This document shows positions 16,491 to 64,000 of a stretch of 64,000 nucleotides of DNA, piece after piece. The position numbers were made by a program, and so were the translations under genes. The stretch lies in contig NC_043012.1 of NCBI RefSeq assembly GCF_006345805.1, forward strand, positions 36,022,001 to 36,086,000, given 5' to 3'. The notes under the pieces were generated by a model. It was not told the DNA's origin. It made no database searches and worked only from the letters and a program-made list of their open reading frames with translations. The stretch comes from Octopus sinensis. Taxonomy: Eukaryota. Within the stretch, counting starts at the first letter, position 1; each line of letters begins with the position of its first letter.

Positions 16491-16520
16491 ATAAATGTTA
16501 TAATATATATATATACATAT

Positions 16521-19002
16521 GAAAAGCATGAAAACAGGGAAAGCCCCAGGCCCATCAGGAATTACTGCAGAGATGCTCAAAATATCTGGTAGTGTCGGCT
16601 ATAGCCTAGTCACCCGTATAGTTAACCAGGTGATACACGAAGGAGTCATTCCCAATGACTGGTGTAGCAGCATAATAGTCAGCTGCTACAAAGGTAAAGG
16701 TGACGCCCTAGATACAAATAGCTACAGGGGTATCAAGCTGCTGGATCAGGTAATGAAGGTTATGGAGAGGGTTATAGCCCAACTAATTAGAGAGAGAGTT
16801 AGCCTAGATCAGATGCAGTTTGTGTTCGTGCCAGGGAAAAGTACTACTGATGCTATTTTCATGGTAAGACAGCTGCAAGAGAAATACCTAGCCAAAGACA
16901 AGCCCCTATACCTGGCTTTTGTTGATATGGAGAAAGCCTTCGACAGGGTCCCCCGATCCCTCATCTGGTGGTCAATGAGGAAACTAGGGATAGATGAATG
17001 GTTAGTGAAAGCTGTACAAGCCATGTACAGAGACGCTGCTAGTAAGGTGAGGGTTGGCACCGAGTACAGTGAAGAATTCAGGGTAGAGGTTGGGGTCCAG
17101 CAAGGTTCAGTACTCAGCCCCCTCCTATTTATCATAGTCCTCCAGGCAATAATGGAGGAATTCAAGACAGGATGCCCCTGGGAGCTCCTCTATGCTGATG
17201 ACCTTGCTCTCATTGCTGAGTCTCTATCAGAACTAGAGGAGAAGTTTCAGGTATGGAAACAAGGTTTAGAATCGAAGGGCCTTAGAATCAACCTAGCCAA
17301 AACCAAAGTCCTAATAAGTAGGAAGGTAGACCAATCACAAACGCCTTCAGTAGATGGCCCTGCCTGCTCGATCTGTAGAAAAGGTGTAGGTAGAAACTCT
17401 ATAAGATGCACCAGTGTAAGCTATGGACACATAAGAGGTGCAGCAATGTCAAAGGAAGGCTAACTAGGAGATGGTTTTGTGTATGTGGCAGATGCTCAGG
17501 ACAATTACACTGAAGATGCTCTGAGACCAACTTCCGTCACTTTCCAGGAAAAGCTAGAGTAGTTGATAGTTCCGTTACCTAGGTGACCAAGTCAGTAGCG
17601 GGGGCGGGGTGTGCGCGGAGAGTAACTGCTAGAGTAAAATAGCCTGGGCAAAGTTTAGAGAGCTCTTACCTCTGCTGGTGACAAAAGGCCTCGCTCAAAG
17701 TAAAAGGCAGACTGTATGATGCATGTGTACGTACAGCCATGCTACATGGTAGTGAAACTTGGGCTGTGACTGCTGAGGATTTGCGTAAGCTCGCAAGAAA
17801 TGAAGCTAGTATGCTCCGATGGATGTGTAACGTCAGTGTTCATAATCGACAGAGTGTAAGTACCTTGAGAGAAAAGTTGAACCTAAGAAGTATCAGTTGT
17901 TGTGTGCAAGAGAGACGTATGCGCTGGATGGTCATGTGATGAGAATGGCTGAAGATAGTTGTGTGCGAAAGTGCACACCCTGGCAGTTGAGGGGACCTGT
18001 GGAAGAGGTAGACCCAGGAAAACCTGGGTCGAGGCGGTGAAGCACGACCTTCGAACTTTAGGTCTCACCAAGGAATGACCAGTGACCGAGACCTTTGGAG
18101 GTATGCTGTGGCGTGAGAAAACCCGCCAAGACCAGTGAGAACAGTCAAAATCAAGATCAAACCAAATTGAGGTCGATCAACATCAGGGCCCCCGTGCAGG
18201 TGACACGTAAAAGTACCATCCGTTCGTAGCCGTTCTCCAGCCCTGTCTGGCCCCCATGTAGGTGGCACGTAAAAGCACCATCCGTTCGTGTTCGTTGCCA
18301 GCCTGGCCTGGCCCCCGTGCCGGTGACACGTAAAAGCACCATCCGTTTGTGGCCGTTTGCCAGCTCTGTCTGGCCCCCGTGCCGGTGACACGTAAAAGCA
18401 CCATCCGTTCGTGGCCGTTTGCCAGCCCTGTCTGGCCCCCATGTCGGTGACATGTAAAAGCACCATCCGTTCGTGTCCGTTGCCAGCCTTGCCTGGCCCC
18501 CGTGCCGGTGACACGTAAAAGCACCATCCGTTCGTGGCCGTTTGCCAGCCCTGTCTGGCCCCCATGTCGGTGGCATGTAAAAGCACCATCCGTTCGTGCC
18601 CGTTGCCAGCCTCGCCTGGCCCCCGTGCCGGTGACACGTAAAAGCACCATCCGTTTCGTGGCCATTTGCCAGCTCTGTCTGGCCCCCATGTTGGTGGCAC
18701 GTAAAAGCACCATCCGTTCGTGTCCGTTGCCAGCCTCGCCTGGCCCCCGTGCCGGTGACACGTAAAAGCACCATCCGTTCGTGGCCGTTTGCCAGCTCTG
18801 TCTGGCACCTGTGCAGGTGGCACGTAAAAAGCACCCACTACACTCACGGAGTGGTTGGCGTTAGGAAGGGCATCCAGCCGTAGAAACACTGCCAGATCTG
18901 ACTGGGCCTGATGAAGCCTTCCAGCTTCACAGACCCCAGTTGAACCGTCCAACCCATGCTAGCATGGAGAACGGACGCTAAATGATGATGATGATGATGA
19001 TG
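16521..19002 (+). mobile_element. 5'-truncated RTE-clade LINE: RT domain, PHD finger, C-terminus, tandem-repeat 3' UTR and (GAT)n tail
   Basis: KAPGPSG, YRGIKLL, FVDMEKAFD, GVQQGSVLSP, LLYADD, GLRINLAKT, then MLHGSETW and GRGRPRKTW. Frameshifted after about 17410. Possible low-complexity TSD atatacatat at 16511-16520 and 19003-19012. Confidence 0.95.
18187..18834 (+). repeat. Tandem array of 61-63-bp units (10 full plus 1 partial) in the RTE 3' UTR
   Basis: Units start at 18187, 18249, 18310, 18372, 18434, 18495, 18557, 18618, 18681, 18742 and 18804. Core ggtg(a/g)cacgtaaaagcaccatccgttcgtg. Confidence 0.95.
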
Positions 19003-20118
19003 ATATACATATATGTATATATATATGTGTGTATGTACACACCTATGTGTGTATGTGTGCAAATTTATTTGTACATGCATTTGTCATTGCATGTTTATCT
19101 CTATCTATTCATCTATATACCCAAGTTTGTCTTTGTGTGTTTGTCAGTCTGTATGTATGTTAGTTGTATCTACATATGTGTGTGTTTGTGTGTGTGTATA
19201 CATATATGCGTTTCACAATGCTTACTTGTCTATGTGCATATCTCTATGTATATACATTTGTATTGTGTTAACATATTGTACAATGTACAATTGTATAATG
19301 TATCATCATCATCATCATCATTAGTTTTTATTATTAGTATTAATCTCATGAGATGCAAAGCAGAAACATATATCGGGACGTGCGTATTGATGTGGACATC
19401 TAATATTCCTGGATCAATATGTTTGATCATGTCAAGTGTATTGATCTATTGATCCATTAACAGGAGACACTGGAAATAAAAAGAGAGACCAACTTCATAG
19501 CAGTTCTTGTTTACGCATGAATGGGTCGGGATAAGTCTGTCAGATCAAACAATCACAACTAGAACTTTGGGAAAACATTGATAAGAACTTATAACGTATC
19601 TGGCATTTCTGGGAAATTTGCAATCAAATACAGATGACTGTCAGAATCCGGTGAATACATAACATTGTGCTCAGGGTACACAGCAGATGCAACCAAGTAA
19701 TCTGATGGATTTAGCTGAATCGTGTATACAAGGGAGGTAACCGCTGTAAAGTTGGTACTTTTCATTTCTAACTTTTCAACTGATGATCCTTCTTCAAAGT
19801 GACAAAACCATGTGTTCCAGATGCCTTCTTTTGTTGTTTGCATCTGTGTTGTGAAGTCTGTATTGTTTTTGATGTCACCGGAATTGAGTTCTTTCACACC
19901 TAACACATGGAAATCTATGAGTGTGCCGTACATTTTAATTGTCATACTCTTGTGAGGAAAACCTCTTTCCAAAAGGTTCATTACATTCTATTTTCCAAAT
20001 AAAACTTTACAAATAGTTAACTTTTAAGAAAATCTTTCTTTAAATTTTGTGACTGTATCAAGTATTTTTTGCAATAACTTGTGTGTGTGTGTGCAGATCA
20101 TGGTATCATGGTATTGAC

Positions 20119-20351
20119 AAGGCGGTGAGCTGGCAGAAACGTTAGCGCGCCGGGTGAAATGCTTAGCGGTATTTCATCTGCCGCTACATTCTGAGTTCAA
20201 ATTCCGCCAAGGTCGACTTTGCCTTTCATCCTTTCGGGGTCGATTAAATAAGTACCAGTTATGCACTGGGGTCGATGTAATCGACTTAATCCGTTTGTCT
20301 GTCCTTGTTTGTCCCCTCTGTGTTTAGTCCCTTGTGGGTAGTAAAGAAATA
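20119..20351 (+). mobile_element. SINE family B, young long-tail copy with a 17-bp TSD
   Basis: TSD ggtatcatggtattgac at 20102-20118 and 20352-20368. B box gagttcaaattcc; ends gtaaagaaata. Confidence 0.93.
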
Positions 20352-20657
20352 GGTATCATGGTATTGACCAACAATTGGACAGTCACAATGCACTTCACGT
20401 CATTTTAGCTTTCAAGTCATGTTCCCACCCCACTGGTTAGCAGGTGAACAGGCCAACATTCCCCCTGATCAGAAGGTTATCCCATTGCAGGGGCACCTAT
20501 TTACAGCTGAGTGGACTGGGGCAACAGGAAATGAAGTGTTTTGCTCAACACCACATTGCACTGCCTGGGTCAGTAATCAAGCACTCAATCTAGGGATTAT
20601 GAGCGCAACACCTTAAGCACTCGGCCAGGTACCTTAACTTACACATACACACTTGCA

Positions 20658-25114: not shown

Positions 25115-25658
25115 GTTTCTGTCTGTCTTTTTGTCTGATTGTCTGTCTGTCTCTCACTCTCTCTCTCTCCCTCACTCTCTCCGTCTCTGTCTCCCTCTCT
25201 ACTTGTGACCAGATTTCTCTTTATGTGTCTGAGAAGGAATAGTGTTTATGTCAATCATGTTCAATTAATAAAATATAATCTTTCTCTCATTCTCTCTCCC
25301 TTTCTCTCTCTCTCCTTTTCTCTCTCTCTCCCTCTTTCTCTCTCTCTCTCTCTCTCTCCTTTTCTCTCTCTCTCCCTCTATGAATATATTTCTGAAAGCA
25401 CACATGGTTACTTATCTCCAGCCCCAAAACATTCCCGTCGGCCAAAACAGGCTGCATGTCCAACCAGCCATGCCAAATGGTCTGTGTCCAGCAGCTGCAC
25501 CAAATTGTCCCATTTCAGTGTAACACGTCTCATTACCATACAACTGTAACATTTTGGTGTAACATATGAGTGTCTCAATGTGTCTCAATTCTCAATTCTC
25601 ACCATATCATCGTAACATACTGGTGTAACATGTGGGTGTGACTATATCACTGTAACAT

Positions 25659-25891
25659 AGGGTGGCGAGCTGGCAGAAACGTTAGCAAGCCGGGCAAAAT
25701 GCTTTGCAGTATTTCGTCTGTGGTTATGTTCTGAGTTCAAATTCCGCCGAGGTCGACTTTGCCTTTCATCCTTTCGGGGTCGATAAATTAAGTACCAGTT
25801 TCACACTGGGCTCGATGTAATCGACTTAATCCGTTTGTCTGTCCTTGTTTGTCTTCTCTTTGTTTAGCCCCTTGTGGGTAGTAAAGAAATA
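25659..25891 (+). mobile_element. SINE family B, young long-tail copy with a 16-bp TSD
   Basis: TSD tatatcactgtaacat at 25643-25658 and 25892-25907. Confidence 0.93.
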
Positions 25892-26318
25892 TATATCACT
25901 GTAACATTGGTGTAACATGTATAAATATGACACCTCACACCTCTCGCTTGCAGTGTCCATTCTCTTCTCCATTTGCAGAATTTCAAAAATTCATTCTTGG
26001 TTTCTTTTTTTTTTTAATTCGTATGAAGTAAAAGCCAACCTAAAAACATGGTATTATTCTTGCCTATGGTTTTGTTAATAATATTAATGGATAATCCTGA
26101 AAGTGGTGAGTGGCAGAATTGCTTGCATGCCAGGCAAAATGCTTCCTGGCATTTTGTCCATTTTCACATTCTGAGTTCAATTGCTGCTGGGGTTGATAAA
26201 ATAAGTGTCATTTGAGCACAGGGATTGATGTAATCGACTTTGCCCCTCCCCACAAAACTAATCACCATCTGCCAAAATTTGAAAGCAATATTAAGAGATA
26301 ATCCAACATCCTGTTTAA

Positions 26319-53907: not shown

Positions 53908-54311
53908 TATTCTTTTCTACTCTAGCACAAGACCCTAAATTTTTGGAAGAGGAGGGGCCAGTCGATTAGATCTACCCCAGTACGCAACTGGTATTTAATT
54001 TATCGACCCCGAAAGGATGAAACGGAAAGTCGACTTCGGTGGAATTTAAACTCAGAACGTCAAGACAGACTAAATACTTATTTCTTTACTACCCACAAGG
54101 GGCTAAACACGGAGAGGACAAACAAGGACAGACATAGATATTAAGTCGATTACATCGACCCCAGTGCGTAACTGGTACTTATTTAATCGACCCCGAAAGG
54201 ATGAAAGGCAAAGTCGATTTCGGCGGAATTTGAACTCAGAACGTAACGGCAGACGAAATACCGCTAAGCATTTCGCCCGGCGTGCTAACGATTCTGCCAG
54301 CTCGCCGCCTT
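53908..54311 (-). mobile_element. SINE B dimer: long-tail copy (54079-54311) followed by the 3' part of a short-tail copy
   Basis: On the - strand gtaaagaaata is followed directly by agtatttagtctgtc..., the internal SINE B position ggtatttcgtctg. Confidence 0.85.
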
Positions 54312-58814: not shown

Positions 58815-58919
58815 TAAATTATAATGATGATGATGATGATGATGATTCTTTCTAATTTAGGCGCAAGTCCAGCAATTTTGAGGGAAGGCTGTAGTTTATT
58901 ACGTCCAGTAAAGAAACGA

Positions 58920-60480
58920 TGAGCACATGGCACCATTCTAGATGCCAGATGTCCAGTTTCGATCTTTGCTTCGGCCAGTTCTGTAGCTTTGTGAAAGAGG
59001 CGATCTGGGGAAAGACCACGGTCGAACAATGATGATGATGATGGGGAAAGACGTGCTTCAAGAACGATGCCAGCACCAGTTTGCTAAGAATCTCTGCAGC
59101 TTCGCAGTGTGTCCGTGCATCAACAGCCACGGCATGCCCCAGACGCCATGCAGATGGCACTGGCAGCAGAGGGATTGCCAGATCCATGGAAAGTGGCCCT
59201 TCCACAAGAATTTGGTATAGCAGACACTCAAATCTGATAAGGCGTTAAACGGTGCAAGTTAACTATAGTCAGGCAGTAAACAATAATTGTGGCGATAAAG
59301 ATTTTCACCACCTCAAATCCACCTTTCAGAGACAGATTCCCCTTGGTCCATTTCTGAGTAAGATTGATCAACCGATCTATATGGAGGTCGGGACAAAAGC
59401 AGAACCGAAATAGTTCAACTGATTCGTCGGTGCAGCATCCCACGGCTCTGTCCGTCGGCGTGGACCGGCTTCTCTTGGTGCCAAACTGGAAACCCACCAA
59501 CCTGGATGAGTTGATCTTTAGCCCCTGCCGTCGTCATTGTCCCTTTTCCCTTTAGAATGGTGCTGACTATCTTCACTTCAGTGGTATTCGATACCATGAT
59601 GGGAACGTCGACCGCATATTCTAATACGGCCTCCCCCTGTTTCTGTCACAGTTCGGAAGCGATTCTGTGTAAATGTTCCAACTTCTGCAGCATCGGCTCA
59701 ATAGCTAGCTTGTGTAGAAGCAACAGGGTCAGCGCTATTGGACCGAATGTGCTGTACGAAACTGCTCCGAGAGATGGCCAATAACTTCGATCACCAAACA
59801 GGTGCCCCTGTACATTGCAGCGGCCCAATTTCTGAAAGCAGGTCCGAACCTGGCCGCTTTCAAGATAAATTCAAATAACGATGGTCGACCCTCTCCGAAG
59901 TTTTCGACTAATCTAAACTAGATCAGGACACCATCAAAGCCAGATATATTTCCAACCGTTTCTCTGATGTCTCGCATAAGGCGCAGAGTATTCTGAATTA
60001 ATCCGTTCGGGATTACGCACGTTTATGCTTCTTTGAACCAGACTACCGACGACAAACGCCAAACTTTTCACTAAACTTGGCCAAAATCTTGAACTTTGTG
60101 TTAAGCCGAGTTAAAGGAACGAAAGTTGACTACGGTCTCCTCTACGTCTTTGTTCGTTTTTCAGCTGTGTTATCAGACATCGGATCACAGCACTAGGAAT
60201 TCTTCCGTTCTTCTGCTAGTTGTAACAGACGTCTGCCAAGAGGTCACCAAACAAGTCTGACATTAAACTTGAAGACGAGAATCGACCAAACCGGGCGATT
60301 GGCACCTTATGCAACCAATCATCACCGCCCATATTTTATTTGTTCTTATTGGCTTCTTACAGCACATCACGTCTCCTGCAGAGATCTGCGACTGGACATC
60401 AAGGGAGGCACCGAAGTTCCACTTCCGTCTCCAAACCATCGCCCGACGCGAACACATGATATTTGTTGGGACGACATTGC
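58920..60480 (-). pseudogene. Old degraded Tx1/L1-clade LINE ORF2 fragment
   Basis: SPGLVD, KILAK, AIEPMLQKL, EYAVDVPIMVS (YADD relic) and VELFRFCFCPDL..LTQKWTKGNLSLKG..EV are collinear with the young copy at 61264-64000. Confidence 0.8.
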
Positions 60481-60976: not shown

Positions 60977-61030
60977 ACAGATAGATGGATGGATGGATTT
61001 GTAGATAGGTGGGTAGGTAGATAGTTAAAC

Positions 61031-61100
<70 letters not shown>

Positions 61101-61152
61101 GTGGATAGATAGAGAAAGAGAGAGAGAGAGAGAGAGATAGGTATATAGGTAA

Positions 61153-61186
<34 letters not shown>

Positions 61187-61195
61187 GGATAGGTG

Positions 61196-61241
<46 letters not shown>

Positions 61242-61263
61242 CAGATAGATAGATGGATAGATA
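60977..61263. repeat. (GATA)n compound microsatellite
   Basis: Direct reading; directly abuts the Tx1 3' end. Confidence 0.95.
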
Positions 61264-64000
61264 TGTTTCTTTATAGCCACACAAGGGCTGCACACAGATA
61301 GAACAAATTACAAGGTAGAGCTTTTCTTTTGAAGGTATTAAAAAAAAAAAAAAAAAAGAAAAAAGGAAGGGGAGGTCGATCAAAATGTATCGTAAAAGGA
61401 GAGAAAGAGGACAAAACTAAGGGGGATTAAAAAAAAAAAAAAAAAAAAAAGGGGGGGGGAGGGAAAAAAATGATCAATAGGGATCGTATCACAGAAATGT
61501 CAATATGAAGTGTAAAGGGGAGGACAGGTGAGGTTTACCCGTGGAAAGAAAAGCCTGCGAAAAGACCACGGTAACCTCGGTCAATGAAGTCACATTTTAT
61601 ATTTCTTTTTTTTTTTTTTTTTTTTTTTTTGCAAATAAGCAACTCTCTGTTTTCGATTTCTGGGTTCATAGGACTATGTGCTCAAGGTGGCTTCGTCATT
61701 CATACGTGCCATTCTTGCTACATTCACCCATCTTTTTTAAAACATTCGCTAGACAAAACTTGCCTCTCTACTCTCACTTTCCTTTTCAAGTGGTACTTGA
61801 AGAAGTTGATGAGAGATTGACCAGAGATGAAAGTGTTTGTCTCCAATCCTTTCAGACGCGTCCACCAGATACATTCTTTTCGCCCATAGCCACAAGGATG
61901 ATGAAATTAGCTCTTCTTCCGTTTTTGAAGGAAGGAGGCGTGACAATATGACGATAGACTCAGCTGATAAACCGACTCGTCCCACGTGACAGCAGTTTTT
62001 CGACATAAGCCACAGGTCGGAAATTGTTGGACACTGGAACGAGTGCGTGCAGAACGGTTTCGTCGCTCTGACCGCATCTCGGGCAGTCGGGCCCCGGGTT
62101 TCTCGAGCCGTGTCTGTAAGCTTATCCCGAACGGGTAGCGCTTCTCGGTAGCACTGCCAGCCAGGGATCTCTGGAAGTTGTCCATGGGCCCTGGCCCGAA
62201 AGTCGTCCCGACCAGGCGGGTCAGGTACTCCTCGTCGACGTCCAGGTTCGCCCCGAGCTCGTCGTCCGTACCTCCCCTCACTAAACCCCTATAGAATGCT
62301 TTGGTTTGGTTGAAGTCACTTAAGGTCGACCAGGACGGCAGAGTTGCTTGAGAGCAACGCGACACTCGCGGTGCCATTGCCCTTCCTCGGCCTCTTTTGA
62401 TCACGACTGCAGTTCGGTCATGGAGACGAGCTGCGGGAAAGCGTGCCTCACAAACGGCGACCACACCTGTTCACCGTCGTCTACATAGAGCCAGAGATGT
62501 CGCAGTCTCAGCGCGTGTCTTCTGCGCATCATCAACCACGGCATGCCCACCCTCCTTTTAACGGGTGTTGACAGCAAATGGATCGCCTGACCATCGGGAC
62601 GCATCCTTTCCACAAGAAGCGAAAGAGGATGCGTTGTAGTTTGGTGATGGTAGGGTCGGGACAAGGTACGACGGTCAGGCGGTAGTAGATGACGGACGCG
62701 CGATGTACGTGTTCGCCACCTCCGCTCGACCTTTTAGGGACAGTTTCCTCTCGGCCCATTGCCGGGCGAGAGTGACCACCCTACTCGTTATCTCGTTCCA
62801 GTTCTTCTCCACTTGGAGGTCCGGACCAAACCAGACCCCGAGCAACTCAACCGGGCCGTCGGTCCAGCGTCCCACGACAGAGGCGCTGGTGGACGGCATG
62901 GGCTTGCTTCTCCAGGTGCCTAGTCGCAAGCCCACTGACTTTTCCCGGTTGATTTTCGCTCCTGTCACCGCTCGTCGTAGTTTTTCAGTGTCTCGTATCG
63001 CCGACCAGCTCGATGTGCTCGTGGCTAGACACTATGACGGTGACGTCGTCCGCGTATGCAGACACTCTCGTCCCGCATCCCAATTCTCGCGGATGCCCCT
63101 AGAGTCGCCAGCTTCCGCAGTAGTGGGCTCAAGAGTCAATACGTATAGAAGCGCCGAGAGGGGGCATCCCTGACGGACCGAACGTGCAATGTCGAAAGGT
63201 CTCGATAGAGTCCATTTACGCGAATTACCGAACGGATGCCTCTGTACAGGCAGCTATCCAGCCGCGGAAGACGGGACCGAAACCAGCCGCTCTCAGGACT
63301 GCCTCCAAGTATCGATGGTCTACCCTATCAAAGGCTTTTGATTGATCCAAGTTGATCAGGGCCCCACCCATGCCAGGTTTAACTACCCCCTGTCTAGGAT
63401 GTAGCGCATCAGATGGAGGTTGTCATGGATGGTCCGGCCTGGCACGGCGCATGTTTGCGCCTTGTCGACCAGTTTCTCGATGACAAGCGCCAACCTCTTG
63501 GCTAGCACCTTGGCCAAATTTTCAAGTCTGCATTAAGCAGAGTGATGGGCCTAAAGTTATCTATTACATTTCCCTTGTTTAGATCTTTCTTCAGCAGTGT
63601 TACGGCTCCTCGGCTCACAAAACCAGGAATGCTCCCGTTTTGCTGCCAGTTGGCAGTACACCGCCGCCAAGAGATCTCCAAACAAGTCTGGCATACAATT
63701 GTAAAGCTCGTAGGGTAGACCATCCAAACCCGGTGATTTGTCCCTCGAGCATTCTTCCATCGCTTCCCGCACTCTCCGCCGCCGCCGCCGTGATGGCACC
63801 TTCGCAGCACCCTGCCTTTCTTGTCGAGAGTCGTGGTAGGCTATGTAGGTAGGCACTGAAGTCCACCCTACGTTCTTGCCCTCCCTCGTTCCGAACAGTC
63901 GGGCAAAATGCTGCTGAGGCCTCACAACATTTACTTGGCTCGAGCAATTCGCGCCCCTGTTCATCTACCAGTGACCGAATGGTGGCTTTGGTTGCCCTGT
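61264..64000 (-). mobile_element. Tx1/L1-clade LINE: ORF2 (RT plus CCHC knuckle) and 3' UTR, continuing beyond the window
   Basis: KSPGLDGLPYELY, NFRPITLLNADLKI, QGCPLS, AYADDV (about 63043-63060), GAKINREKS, LSLKGRAEVAN and CPRCGQSDETVLHALV.C (about 62030-62087). Stop at 61674-61676, then about 410 nt of U-rich 3' UTR. CpG-rich, with many 1-nt frameshifts. Confidence 0.93.

What the first reader, a model, noticed from the sequence alone, without database searches (positions are those of the whole stretch)
20102..20368. tRNA-derived SINE subfamily shares its 3' tail with the Tx1/L1-clade LINE: candidate new SINE-LINE pair
Seen: the long-tail SINE B copies (20119, 25659, 54079) end CCTTG--TTTGTCCCCTCTGTGTTTAG(C/T)CCCTTGTG-GGTAGTAAAGAAA. 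The Tx1 element ends (61315 to 61266, - strand) CCTTGTAATTTGTTCTATCTGTGTGCAGCCCTTGTGTGGCTATAAAGAAA. Both can form a short stem around a CTTGT loop just before TAAAGAAA, and neither has a long poly(A). The SINEs have 16-17-bp TSDs. Older SINE B copies carry different tails ending in (ATT)n. Established: tail sharing is the hallmark of stringent partners (CR1, L2, RTE), whereas mammalian L1 recognises poly(A). Inference: this SINE swapped tails and is now mobilised by a stringent Tx1-clade LINE, which I believe is a rarely reported arrangement.
Basis: partly seen in the sequence, partly recalled or inferred. Interest (0 to 1): 0.78.

Follow-up and report, generated by a model that had tools for sequence, protein, structure and literature searches.

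The report
SINE carrying a Tx1 LINE tail
A very abundant short jumping element in this octopus-like genome ends in the same folded 50-letter tail as a whole group of L1/Tx1-type jumping genes, so it likely borrows their copying enzyme by mimicking that tail, an arrangement documented for L1-type elements mainly in plants and algae; the neighbouring copy is probably not the actual helper.

Summary
The three SINE copies and the window LINE share a roughly 50-nt tail (40/52 columns; score 48, shuffles at most 30). All 30 LINE copies fetched end this way, and none of 109 tails has poly(A). The tail is common to a radiation of related L1/Tx1-type families and predicts a two-part hairpin whose inner stem covaries (4 of 4 pairs).

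The window's family is probably not the helper. It is younger than the SINE, inserts into (TATC)n arrays, and has the CTTGT loop in only 1 of 30 copies. Sister families A and B match better (60-79) and are of the SINE's age. The best full-length match (71-82) is to ORF1-only, half-LINE elements with the same tail. No ORF2-bearing exact donor was found.

The long-tail SINE is the youngest subfamily (6% versus 16% divergence), has about 10^5 units and forms head-to-tail multimers. A change of helper clade is not shown: one older tail may be Tx1-type too. SINE-LINE tail sharing is known; an animal tRNA-type SINE with an L1/Tx1 tail was not in the papers read. Repbase and Dfam could not be checked.

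The parts
20119..20351 (+). Long-tail (T-type) SINE copy 1, monomer
   Evidence: genome search 889 candidates, 40 scored, best hits 93-97% identical
20102..20118 (+). Left 17-bp target-site duplication (begins GGTA)
20352..20368 (+). Right 17-bp target-site duplication
20131..20141 (+). A-box-like motif (by eye, recalled consensus)
   Evidence: sequence; ARAGORN and Rfam found no tRNA
20193..20205 (+). B-box-like motif (by eye, recalled consensus, one extra base)
   Evidence: sequence
20168..20174 (+). Internal site (SINE position 50) at which the second unit of multimers begins
20287..20351 (+). Tx1-type 3' tail; predicted two-part hairpin about 20317-20347 with inner stem-loop about 20327-20339
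25659..25891 (+). T-type SINE copy 2, with 16-bp TSD at 25643-25658 and 25892-25907
54079..54311 (-). T-type SINE copy 3, first unit of a dimer
53908..54078 (-). Second unit of the dimer: SINE positions 51-168 plus older A-type tail
61266..64000 (-). 3' part of a frameshifted copy of a (TATC)n-targeting L1/Tx1-type LINE, about 6.5 kb in all, running beyond the window
61266..61316 (-). LINE 3' tail shared with the SINE
61000..61262 (-). (TATC)n array at the LINE's 3' junction (target array)

Best explanation
The long-tail SINE ends in the same roughly 50-nt, non-polyadenylated tail as a radiation of L1/Tx1-type LINEs and is likely copied in trans by their ORF2 protein, which is predicted to recognise a conserved two-part RNA hairpin; the helper is likely a sister family of the SINE's age (family A or B, or an unsampled relative) rather than the (TATC)n-targeting family in this window. 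Shown: tail homology, no poly(A), covariation of the inner stem across families, TSDs, and the younger age of the T subfamily. Also shown: several ORF1-only families carry the same tail and similar TSDs, so the tail behaves like a reusable signal. Inferred: the tail was acquired by template switching just after the shared core; ORF2 binds the hairpin; priming uses short pairing between the nicked target and the RNA just past the tail. The last step would explain why monomers with the 'internal' tail variant often have TSDs starting GGTA, the sequence that follows that variant in multimeric source copies.
For: Tail scores against two natural SINE tails: window LINE 48/50; family A 60-68; family B 64-79; ORF1-only F1/F2 71-82; shuffle maxima 26-45; window RTE end 8-11. 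All 5 non-SINE matches in 464 kb are Tx1-type ends. 27 of 30 zf-RVT loci end in the tail. The families are close kin: best RT segments 51-79% identical to the window family in the 19 non-TATC loci. Structure on 18 natural tails: 90.9% of cells paired against 84.2% shuffled (0/500); all 4 inner pairs have double changes; slid controls 45-54%; RNAalifold recovers the inner stem unaided. Ages: SINE core divergence T 0.064 (n=27), A 0.161 (n=18), B 0.165 (n=22), p<1e-7. Pairwise identity: SINE T about 89%, family A 88%, family B 89-91%, F1/F2 85-87%, TATC 96.5%. ORF1-only elements: ORF1 is homologous to the LINE ORF1; no ORF2 hit in 18 of 18 extended loci or in 30 of 30 ORF1-hit loci within 1.5 kb. 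Junctions: the TAG tail variant is internal in 32 of 76 tails, the CAA variant in 0 of 20 (p=1e-4); terminal TAG tails are followed by AGG in 17 of 44, CAA tails in 1 of 20 (p=0.006).
Against: No ORF2-bearing element matched the SINE tail over its whole length. Family B matches the 5' half and family A the hairpin half; three pattern searches returned only SINE copies, family B or ORF1-only elements. The outer helix is nearly invariant, so it has no covariation support, and it overlaps an AATAAA motif that may be conserved as a polyadenylation signal (inference). Rows are related families, so the shuffle counts overstate significance (tool caveat), and the MAFFT alignment mis-registers the 6-nt-loop rows. 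Only one other LINE clade's 3' end (one RTE copy) was scored. Tx1 versus L1 membership was not tested against named references. The junction counts come from loci enriched by my searches.
Confidence: 0.75

Rival explanations
1. The (TATC)n-targeting family in the window is the SINE's partner.
For: Real tail similarity, 40/52 columns. A (TATC)n-flanked variant tail scores 56-58. The family is young and abundant: 2,078 candidates.
Against: 17 of 18 visible 5' junctions and 30 of 30 3' junctions are in (TATC)n. The 30 best SINE hits and the 26 TSD-bearing copies listed sit in mixed-sequence sites, a few in (TA)n. The family is younger than the SINE, 29 of 30 copies have a different loop, and sister families score higher.
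Confidence: 0.08
2. The tail is Tx1-derived, but recognition is relaxed: the motif is kept as a 3'-processing or stability signal, and any active L1/Tx1 ORF2 can copy the SINE without reading the hairpin.
For: The invariant columns cluster on the AATAAAGAAA motif. Loop sequence and length vary between families. Many families and passengers share the tail.
Against: No poly(A) follows any of 109 tails. The inner stem covaries. The commonest SINE variant breaks AATAAA (A to G) yet keeps pairing as U-G.
Confidence: 0.12
3. The tail was inherited from an ORF1-only element or from the older SINE tail, and the SINE is moved by a LINE of another clade that happens to accept this hairpin.
For: The best match is to ORF1-only elements. 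The A and B tails share a CTTGT-loop hairpin. RTE, Dong-R4 and CR1 families are recently active in Octopus vulgaris (PMC13282606).
Against: The ORF1-only elements are themselves Tx1-derived and need a Tx1-type ORF2 (inference). T does not align to A or B tails at useful scores (12-33, against about 76-124 for intact T tails). The window RTE end scores 8-11.
Confidence: 0.05

Closest known systems
Stringent L1-clade pairs: ZmSINE2/ZmSINE3 with LINE1-1_ZM, SINEX-3_CR with L1-1_CR (Ohshima 2012, PMC3472496, part 1 of 3 read; Ohshima 2013, PMC3747384, passages and Table 1)
   Same: tRNA-type SINE sharing about 50 nt of 3' end with an L1-group LINE; hairpin with compensatory changes.
   Different: Those are plants and a green alga. 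The survey counts 3 L1-tailed SINEs among 58 pairs, and Table 1 lists none from animals and none for Tx1. Here the host is an animal, there is no poly(A), and the tail is shared by many families plus ORF1-only passengers.
SINEU with Tx1-Mar in crocodilians (Kojima 2015, PMC4494074, passages and parts 3-4 of 5 read)
   Same: A SINE proposed to be moved by Tx1-clade LINEs.
   Different: That link rests on shared target and age. The paper states that no LINE sharing the SINEU-1 3' terminus was found; SINEU has snRNA heads and poly(A). Here the link is direct tail homology.
UnaL2/UnaSINE and ZfL2 stringent systems (Hayashi 2014, PMC4176376, passages)
   Same: ORF2 reads a 3' stem-loop; the SINE mimics it. 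This is the mechanism proposed here.
   Different: L2 clade and experimentally proven; here L1/Tx1 group and untested.
HAL1 half-L1 elements (as described in Kojima 2018, PMC5753468, passage; primary paper not held)
   Same: ORF1-only non-autonomous derivative of an L1-group element.
   Different: Described for mammalian L1. Here several families come from Tx1-type LINEs and keep a structured tail instead of poly(A).
Kibi/Koshi microsatellite-targeting Tx1 families (named in PMC4494074)
   Same: The window LINE family inserts into a microsatellite.
   Different: Target (TATC)n rather than (TC)n or (TTC)n; kinship not tested.
MetaSINEs (Nishihara 2016, PMC4824008, parts 1-3 of 6 read)
   Same: One head and core with exchangeable 3' tails. 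The central region resembles the Meta domain by my recall only.
   Different: The paper says the MetaSINE partner LINEs are unknown; membership could not be tested (alignments are figures; supplement search found nothing).

Membership tests
SINE (SINEBase definition, PMC3531059) | Short (<1 kb), interspersed, at least 100 copies | tested here: met
   232 nt; 26 T units in 400 kb, about 1.8x10^5 units (95% 1.2-2.6x10^5) if the sample is representative
SINE (SINEBase definition) | At least 60% identity to a tRNA, 5S or 7SL RNA over 60 nt | tested here: inconclusive
   ARAGORN found 0 genes; Rfam gave no tRNA hit; A- and B-box-like motifs by eye only; no tRNA set was aligned
SINE (SINEBase definition) | Transcribed by RNA polymerase III | not testable with these tools
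   Needs raw RNA reads or an assay
SINE / non-LTR retroposon | Variable-length target-site duplications | tested here: met
   2 of 3 window copies; 26 of 40 terminal copies with a recognisable head, 9-23 nt allowing one mismatch
L1 group LINE | APE endonuclease, RT and C-terminal zinc-binding domain; closest to L1 ORF2p | tested here: met
   Pfam Exo_endo_phos, RVT_1, zf-RVT; best solved relative L1 ORF2p E 4e-53, R2 3e-20
Tx1 clade | RT groups with named Tx1 elements rather than L1 | not testable with these tools
   No named Tx1 reference among the 120 listed hits or atlas clusters; the tree has no named references
Tx1 clade | Target-sequence preference (common in the clade per PMC4494074) | tested here: met
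   (TATC)n at 17 of 18 visible 5' and 30 of 30 3' junctions
Stringent SINE-LINE pair | Shared 3'-terminal sequence | tested here: met
   no single ORF2-bearing family matches the whole tail
Stringent SINE-LINE pair | Conserved 3' stem-loop with compensatory changes | tested here: met
   Inner stem 4 of 4 pairs with double changes in 18 tails; outer helix has none
Stringent SINE-LINE pair | Tail required for retrotransposition | not testable with these tools
   Needs a cell assay
HAL1-like (ORF1-only) element | ORF1 homologue followed by the 3' UTR, no ORF2 | tested here: met
MetaSINE | 66-bp Meta domain after the tRNA head | tested here: inconclusive
   Recalled resemblance only; motif searches in two papers' supplements found nothing, one file each not searched

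The most novel reading that the evidence does not exclude
Octopod Tx1-type LINEs are stringent, hairpin-reading L1-group elements that support a whole guild of passengers under one RNA signal: a tRNA-type SINE of about 10^5 units that multimerises through its own head, and a radiation of ORF1-only half-LINEs. This would be the animal counterpart of the plant and algal cases and a direct model for the proposed stringent ancestor of L1.
Probability: 0.55. Interest if true: 0.68.

Novelty: new variant of a known kind. Interest (0 to 1): 0.52.

Why it matters
Whether the L1 group began with strict 3'-tail recognition and relaxed to poly(A) in mammals and plants is an open proposal (PMC3472496) resting on three plant and algal SINEs. 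An animal L1/Tx1 radiation with a covarying hairpin, no poly(A), natural loop variants and two kinds of passenger gives ready-made constructs to test it and to map a tail-binding region in an L1-type ORF2. It would also assign a helper clade to a major SINE subfamily in a lineage whose SINEs are mostly unclassified (893 of 900 recently active families in O. vulgaris, PMC13282606).

Tried and rejected
Search for an ORF2-bearing exact tail donor:
- One search gave 24 matches; by eye 6 were family B ends, 1 an ORF1-only element and the rest SINE-derived.
- One search gave 5 matches, all SINE variants.
- One search gave 129 matches; the 100 listed looked like SINE or truncated SINE copies by the matched string.
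- The ORF1 search gave 150 hits; 0 of the 30 fetched had ORF2 within 1.5 kb, and 120 were not examined.
- An older ORF2-bearing family ending in (ATT)n scored 43/59 against the two SINE tails.

Donor of the older A and B tails: a pattern search returned 3,929 overlapping matches; the 100 listed looked like SINE copies. A local scan found 1 of 29 hairpins without SINE core, which led to ORF1-only family F4.

Rejected: the tail as a separate SINE insertion at the LINE end. A GGTA endonuclease preference as the sole cause of the TSD starts is disfavoured, not excluded, because it tracks the tail variant.

tRNA identity of the head: no hit. Expression: no RNA holder listed; not used as evidence. 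Names for protein hits could not be looked up.

Literature: 9 full-text searches. None of the passages read describes a Tx1-tailed tRNA SINE. Ohshima and Okada 1994 (octopus SINEs), Albertin 2015 and Bao and Jurka 2010 were not read; the last two are not held. Repbase, Dfam and SINEBase entries could not be searched, and a prior description may sit there or in the repeat library of PMC13282606.

Full report
Observation. The window holds three long-tail (T-type) copies of one SINE family, about 90% alike, and more than ten older copies with other tails. Copies 1 and 2 have exact TSDs of 17 and 16 bp. Copy 3 has none at its own ends and runs straight into a second unit. The LINE at 61266-64000 (-) is a frameshifted copy of a family with endonuclease, RT and zf-RVT domains, closest among solved structures to L1 ORF2p. 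The only organism-named protein hit is from Argonauta (66%), so the host is an octopod-like animal. The tail alignment is well above chance.

The tail is the LINE's own end. All 30 fetched copies (40 scored of 2,078 candidates) end alike; that query contained the tail. A tail-free zf-RVT search (150 scored of 24,041 candidates; 30 fetched) found related tails about 500-600 nt downstream in 27 of 30 loci, one with a base missing. These loci fall into several families (my labels A-E), one radiation by RT identity; the tree of 35 rows has no named references and an open backbone. None of 109 tails is followed by eight or more A.

Which family fits. The window family inserts into (TATC)n, is young and has a 6-nt loop in 29 of 30 copies. 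SINE T copies sit in mixed-sequence sites and are about 89% pairwise identical in an unselected sample. Family A shares the SINE's hairpin half, loop included. Family B shares the pyrimidine-rich 5' half almost letter for letter. Both are of similar age to the SINE (small samples of 5-10 copies chosen by search rank). No ORF2-bearing element matching both halves was found.

ORF1-only passengers. Following a non-SINE hit led to elements of about 1.8 kb. They carry a homologue of the LINE ORF1 with its zinc knuckle, no ORF2, TSDs in 10 of 25 copies tested (9-18 nt, one mismatch allowed), and the best full-length match to the SINE tail. At least four such families were seen, and an ORF1 query had 5,934 candidates. 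The SINE may have taken its tail from one of these or from their unsampled autonomous parent.

Structure. Folded one by one, 21 of 24 Tx1-type tails give a short terminal hairpin, most under a second helix. On 18 aligned tails, 90.9% of cells pair. All four inner pairs show double changes; the outer six show none, being nearly invariant. RNAalifold predicts only the inner stem. The structure was derived from these sequences and the rows are related, so the controls are lenient.

Age and tail exchange. In 40 arbitrary 10-kb stretches, SINE units with a classifiable 3' end were T 26, A 22, B 25, unassigned 4. The shared core is 6.4% from its class majority in T and about 16% in A and B (window copies included). 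T is therefore the latest tail. Whether the helper clade changed is open: three A tails scored 28, 29 and 36 against an ORF1-only Tx1-type tail (shuffle maxima 30, 28, 27); two B tails did not exceed shuffles. An older Tx1-type family also ends in (ATT)n.

Multimers and priming. Eleven of the 30 best SINE hits are followed by a unit starting at position 50. TSDs enclose whole multimers in L034 and L046 and in L257, L185 and L225, so multimers move as units. Among 118 tails, the TAG variant is often internal and the CAA variant never. Terminal TAG copies tend to be followed by AGG, the start of the next unit in the source, and their TSDs begin there. I infer that copying can start at the internal hairpin, primed by short pairing with the RNA downstream. 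A sequence preference of the endonuclease is the alternative.

Comparison. Tail sharing is the known mark of stringent pairs. For the L1 group only three SINEs, from maize and Chlamydomonas, were counted among 58 pairs. The one Tx1-linked SINE in the papers read, SINEU, was linked by target preference, and no shared tail was found for SINEU-1. Passages of three cephalopod or mollusc repeat surveys list L1-Tx1 families but give no such pair. Earlier notes of this scan hold nothing on this genome or sequence and a few analogous cases elsewhere.

Verdict. It works like a stringent SINE-LINE pair; Tx1 membership in the strict sense, tRNA origin and the assay remain untested. New variant of a known kind, interest 0.52.

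Noticed in passing
L255-L302, L378-L381, L403-L432: A radiation of ORF1-only, half-LINE elements with Tx1-type tails; 5,934 candidates for one ORF1 query (autonomous ORF1s included).
   Followed up: partly
L257, L259, L285: A T-type SINE inserted antisense at the same position, just upstream of the tail, in three separate ORF1-only copies; possible insertion hot spot.
   Followed up: no
L101 and L249 (same locus): A family E copy is followed directly by what I recall as the 5' end of U1 snRNA; one locus only.
   Followed up: no
L102-L107, L109, L305: Family C copies are all followed by the same roughly 20-nt sequence: a fixed target or the head of the next copy in tandem.
   Followed up: no
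G000 C9 76.60-76.62 Mb and other clusters: Tx1-type elements in tandem arrays, spaced about 3.6 or 5.4 kb.
   Followed up: no
L063, L067, L200, L220: Tail-only fragments (about 60-130 nt) of (TATC)n-targeting families inserted in TATC arrays.
   Followed up: no
window 16504-18960 (+): RTE-like LINE (clade by recall; RVT_1) with about a dozen tandem repeats of roughly 55 bp in its 3' UTR, ending in (GAT)n.
   Followed up: partly
window about 58900-60400 (-): Decayed Tx1-type RT remnant, about 67% identical to the young family, capped by a truncated older SINE tail and (ATT)n.
   Followed up: no
L064 1323-3575 (+): LTR-retrotransposon-like pol ORF upstream of a truncated LINE copy.
   Followed up: no
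window 20148-20181: The SINE head holds a long predicted hairpin between the A- and B-box-like motifs (folded on copy 3); the multimer junction lies in its 3' arm.
   Followed up: no
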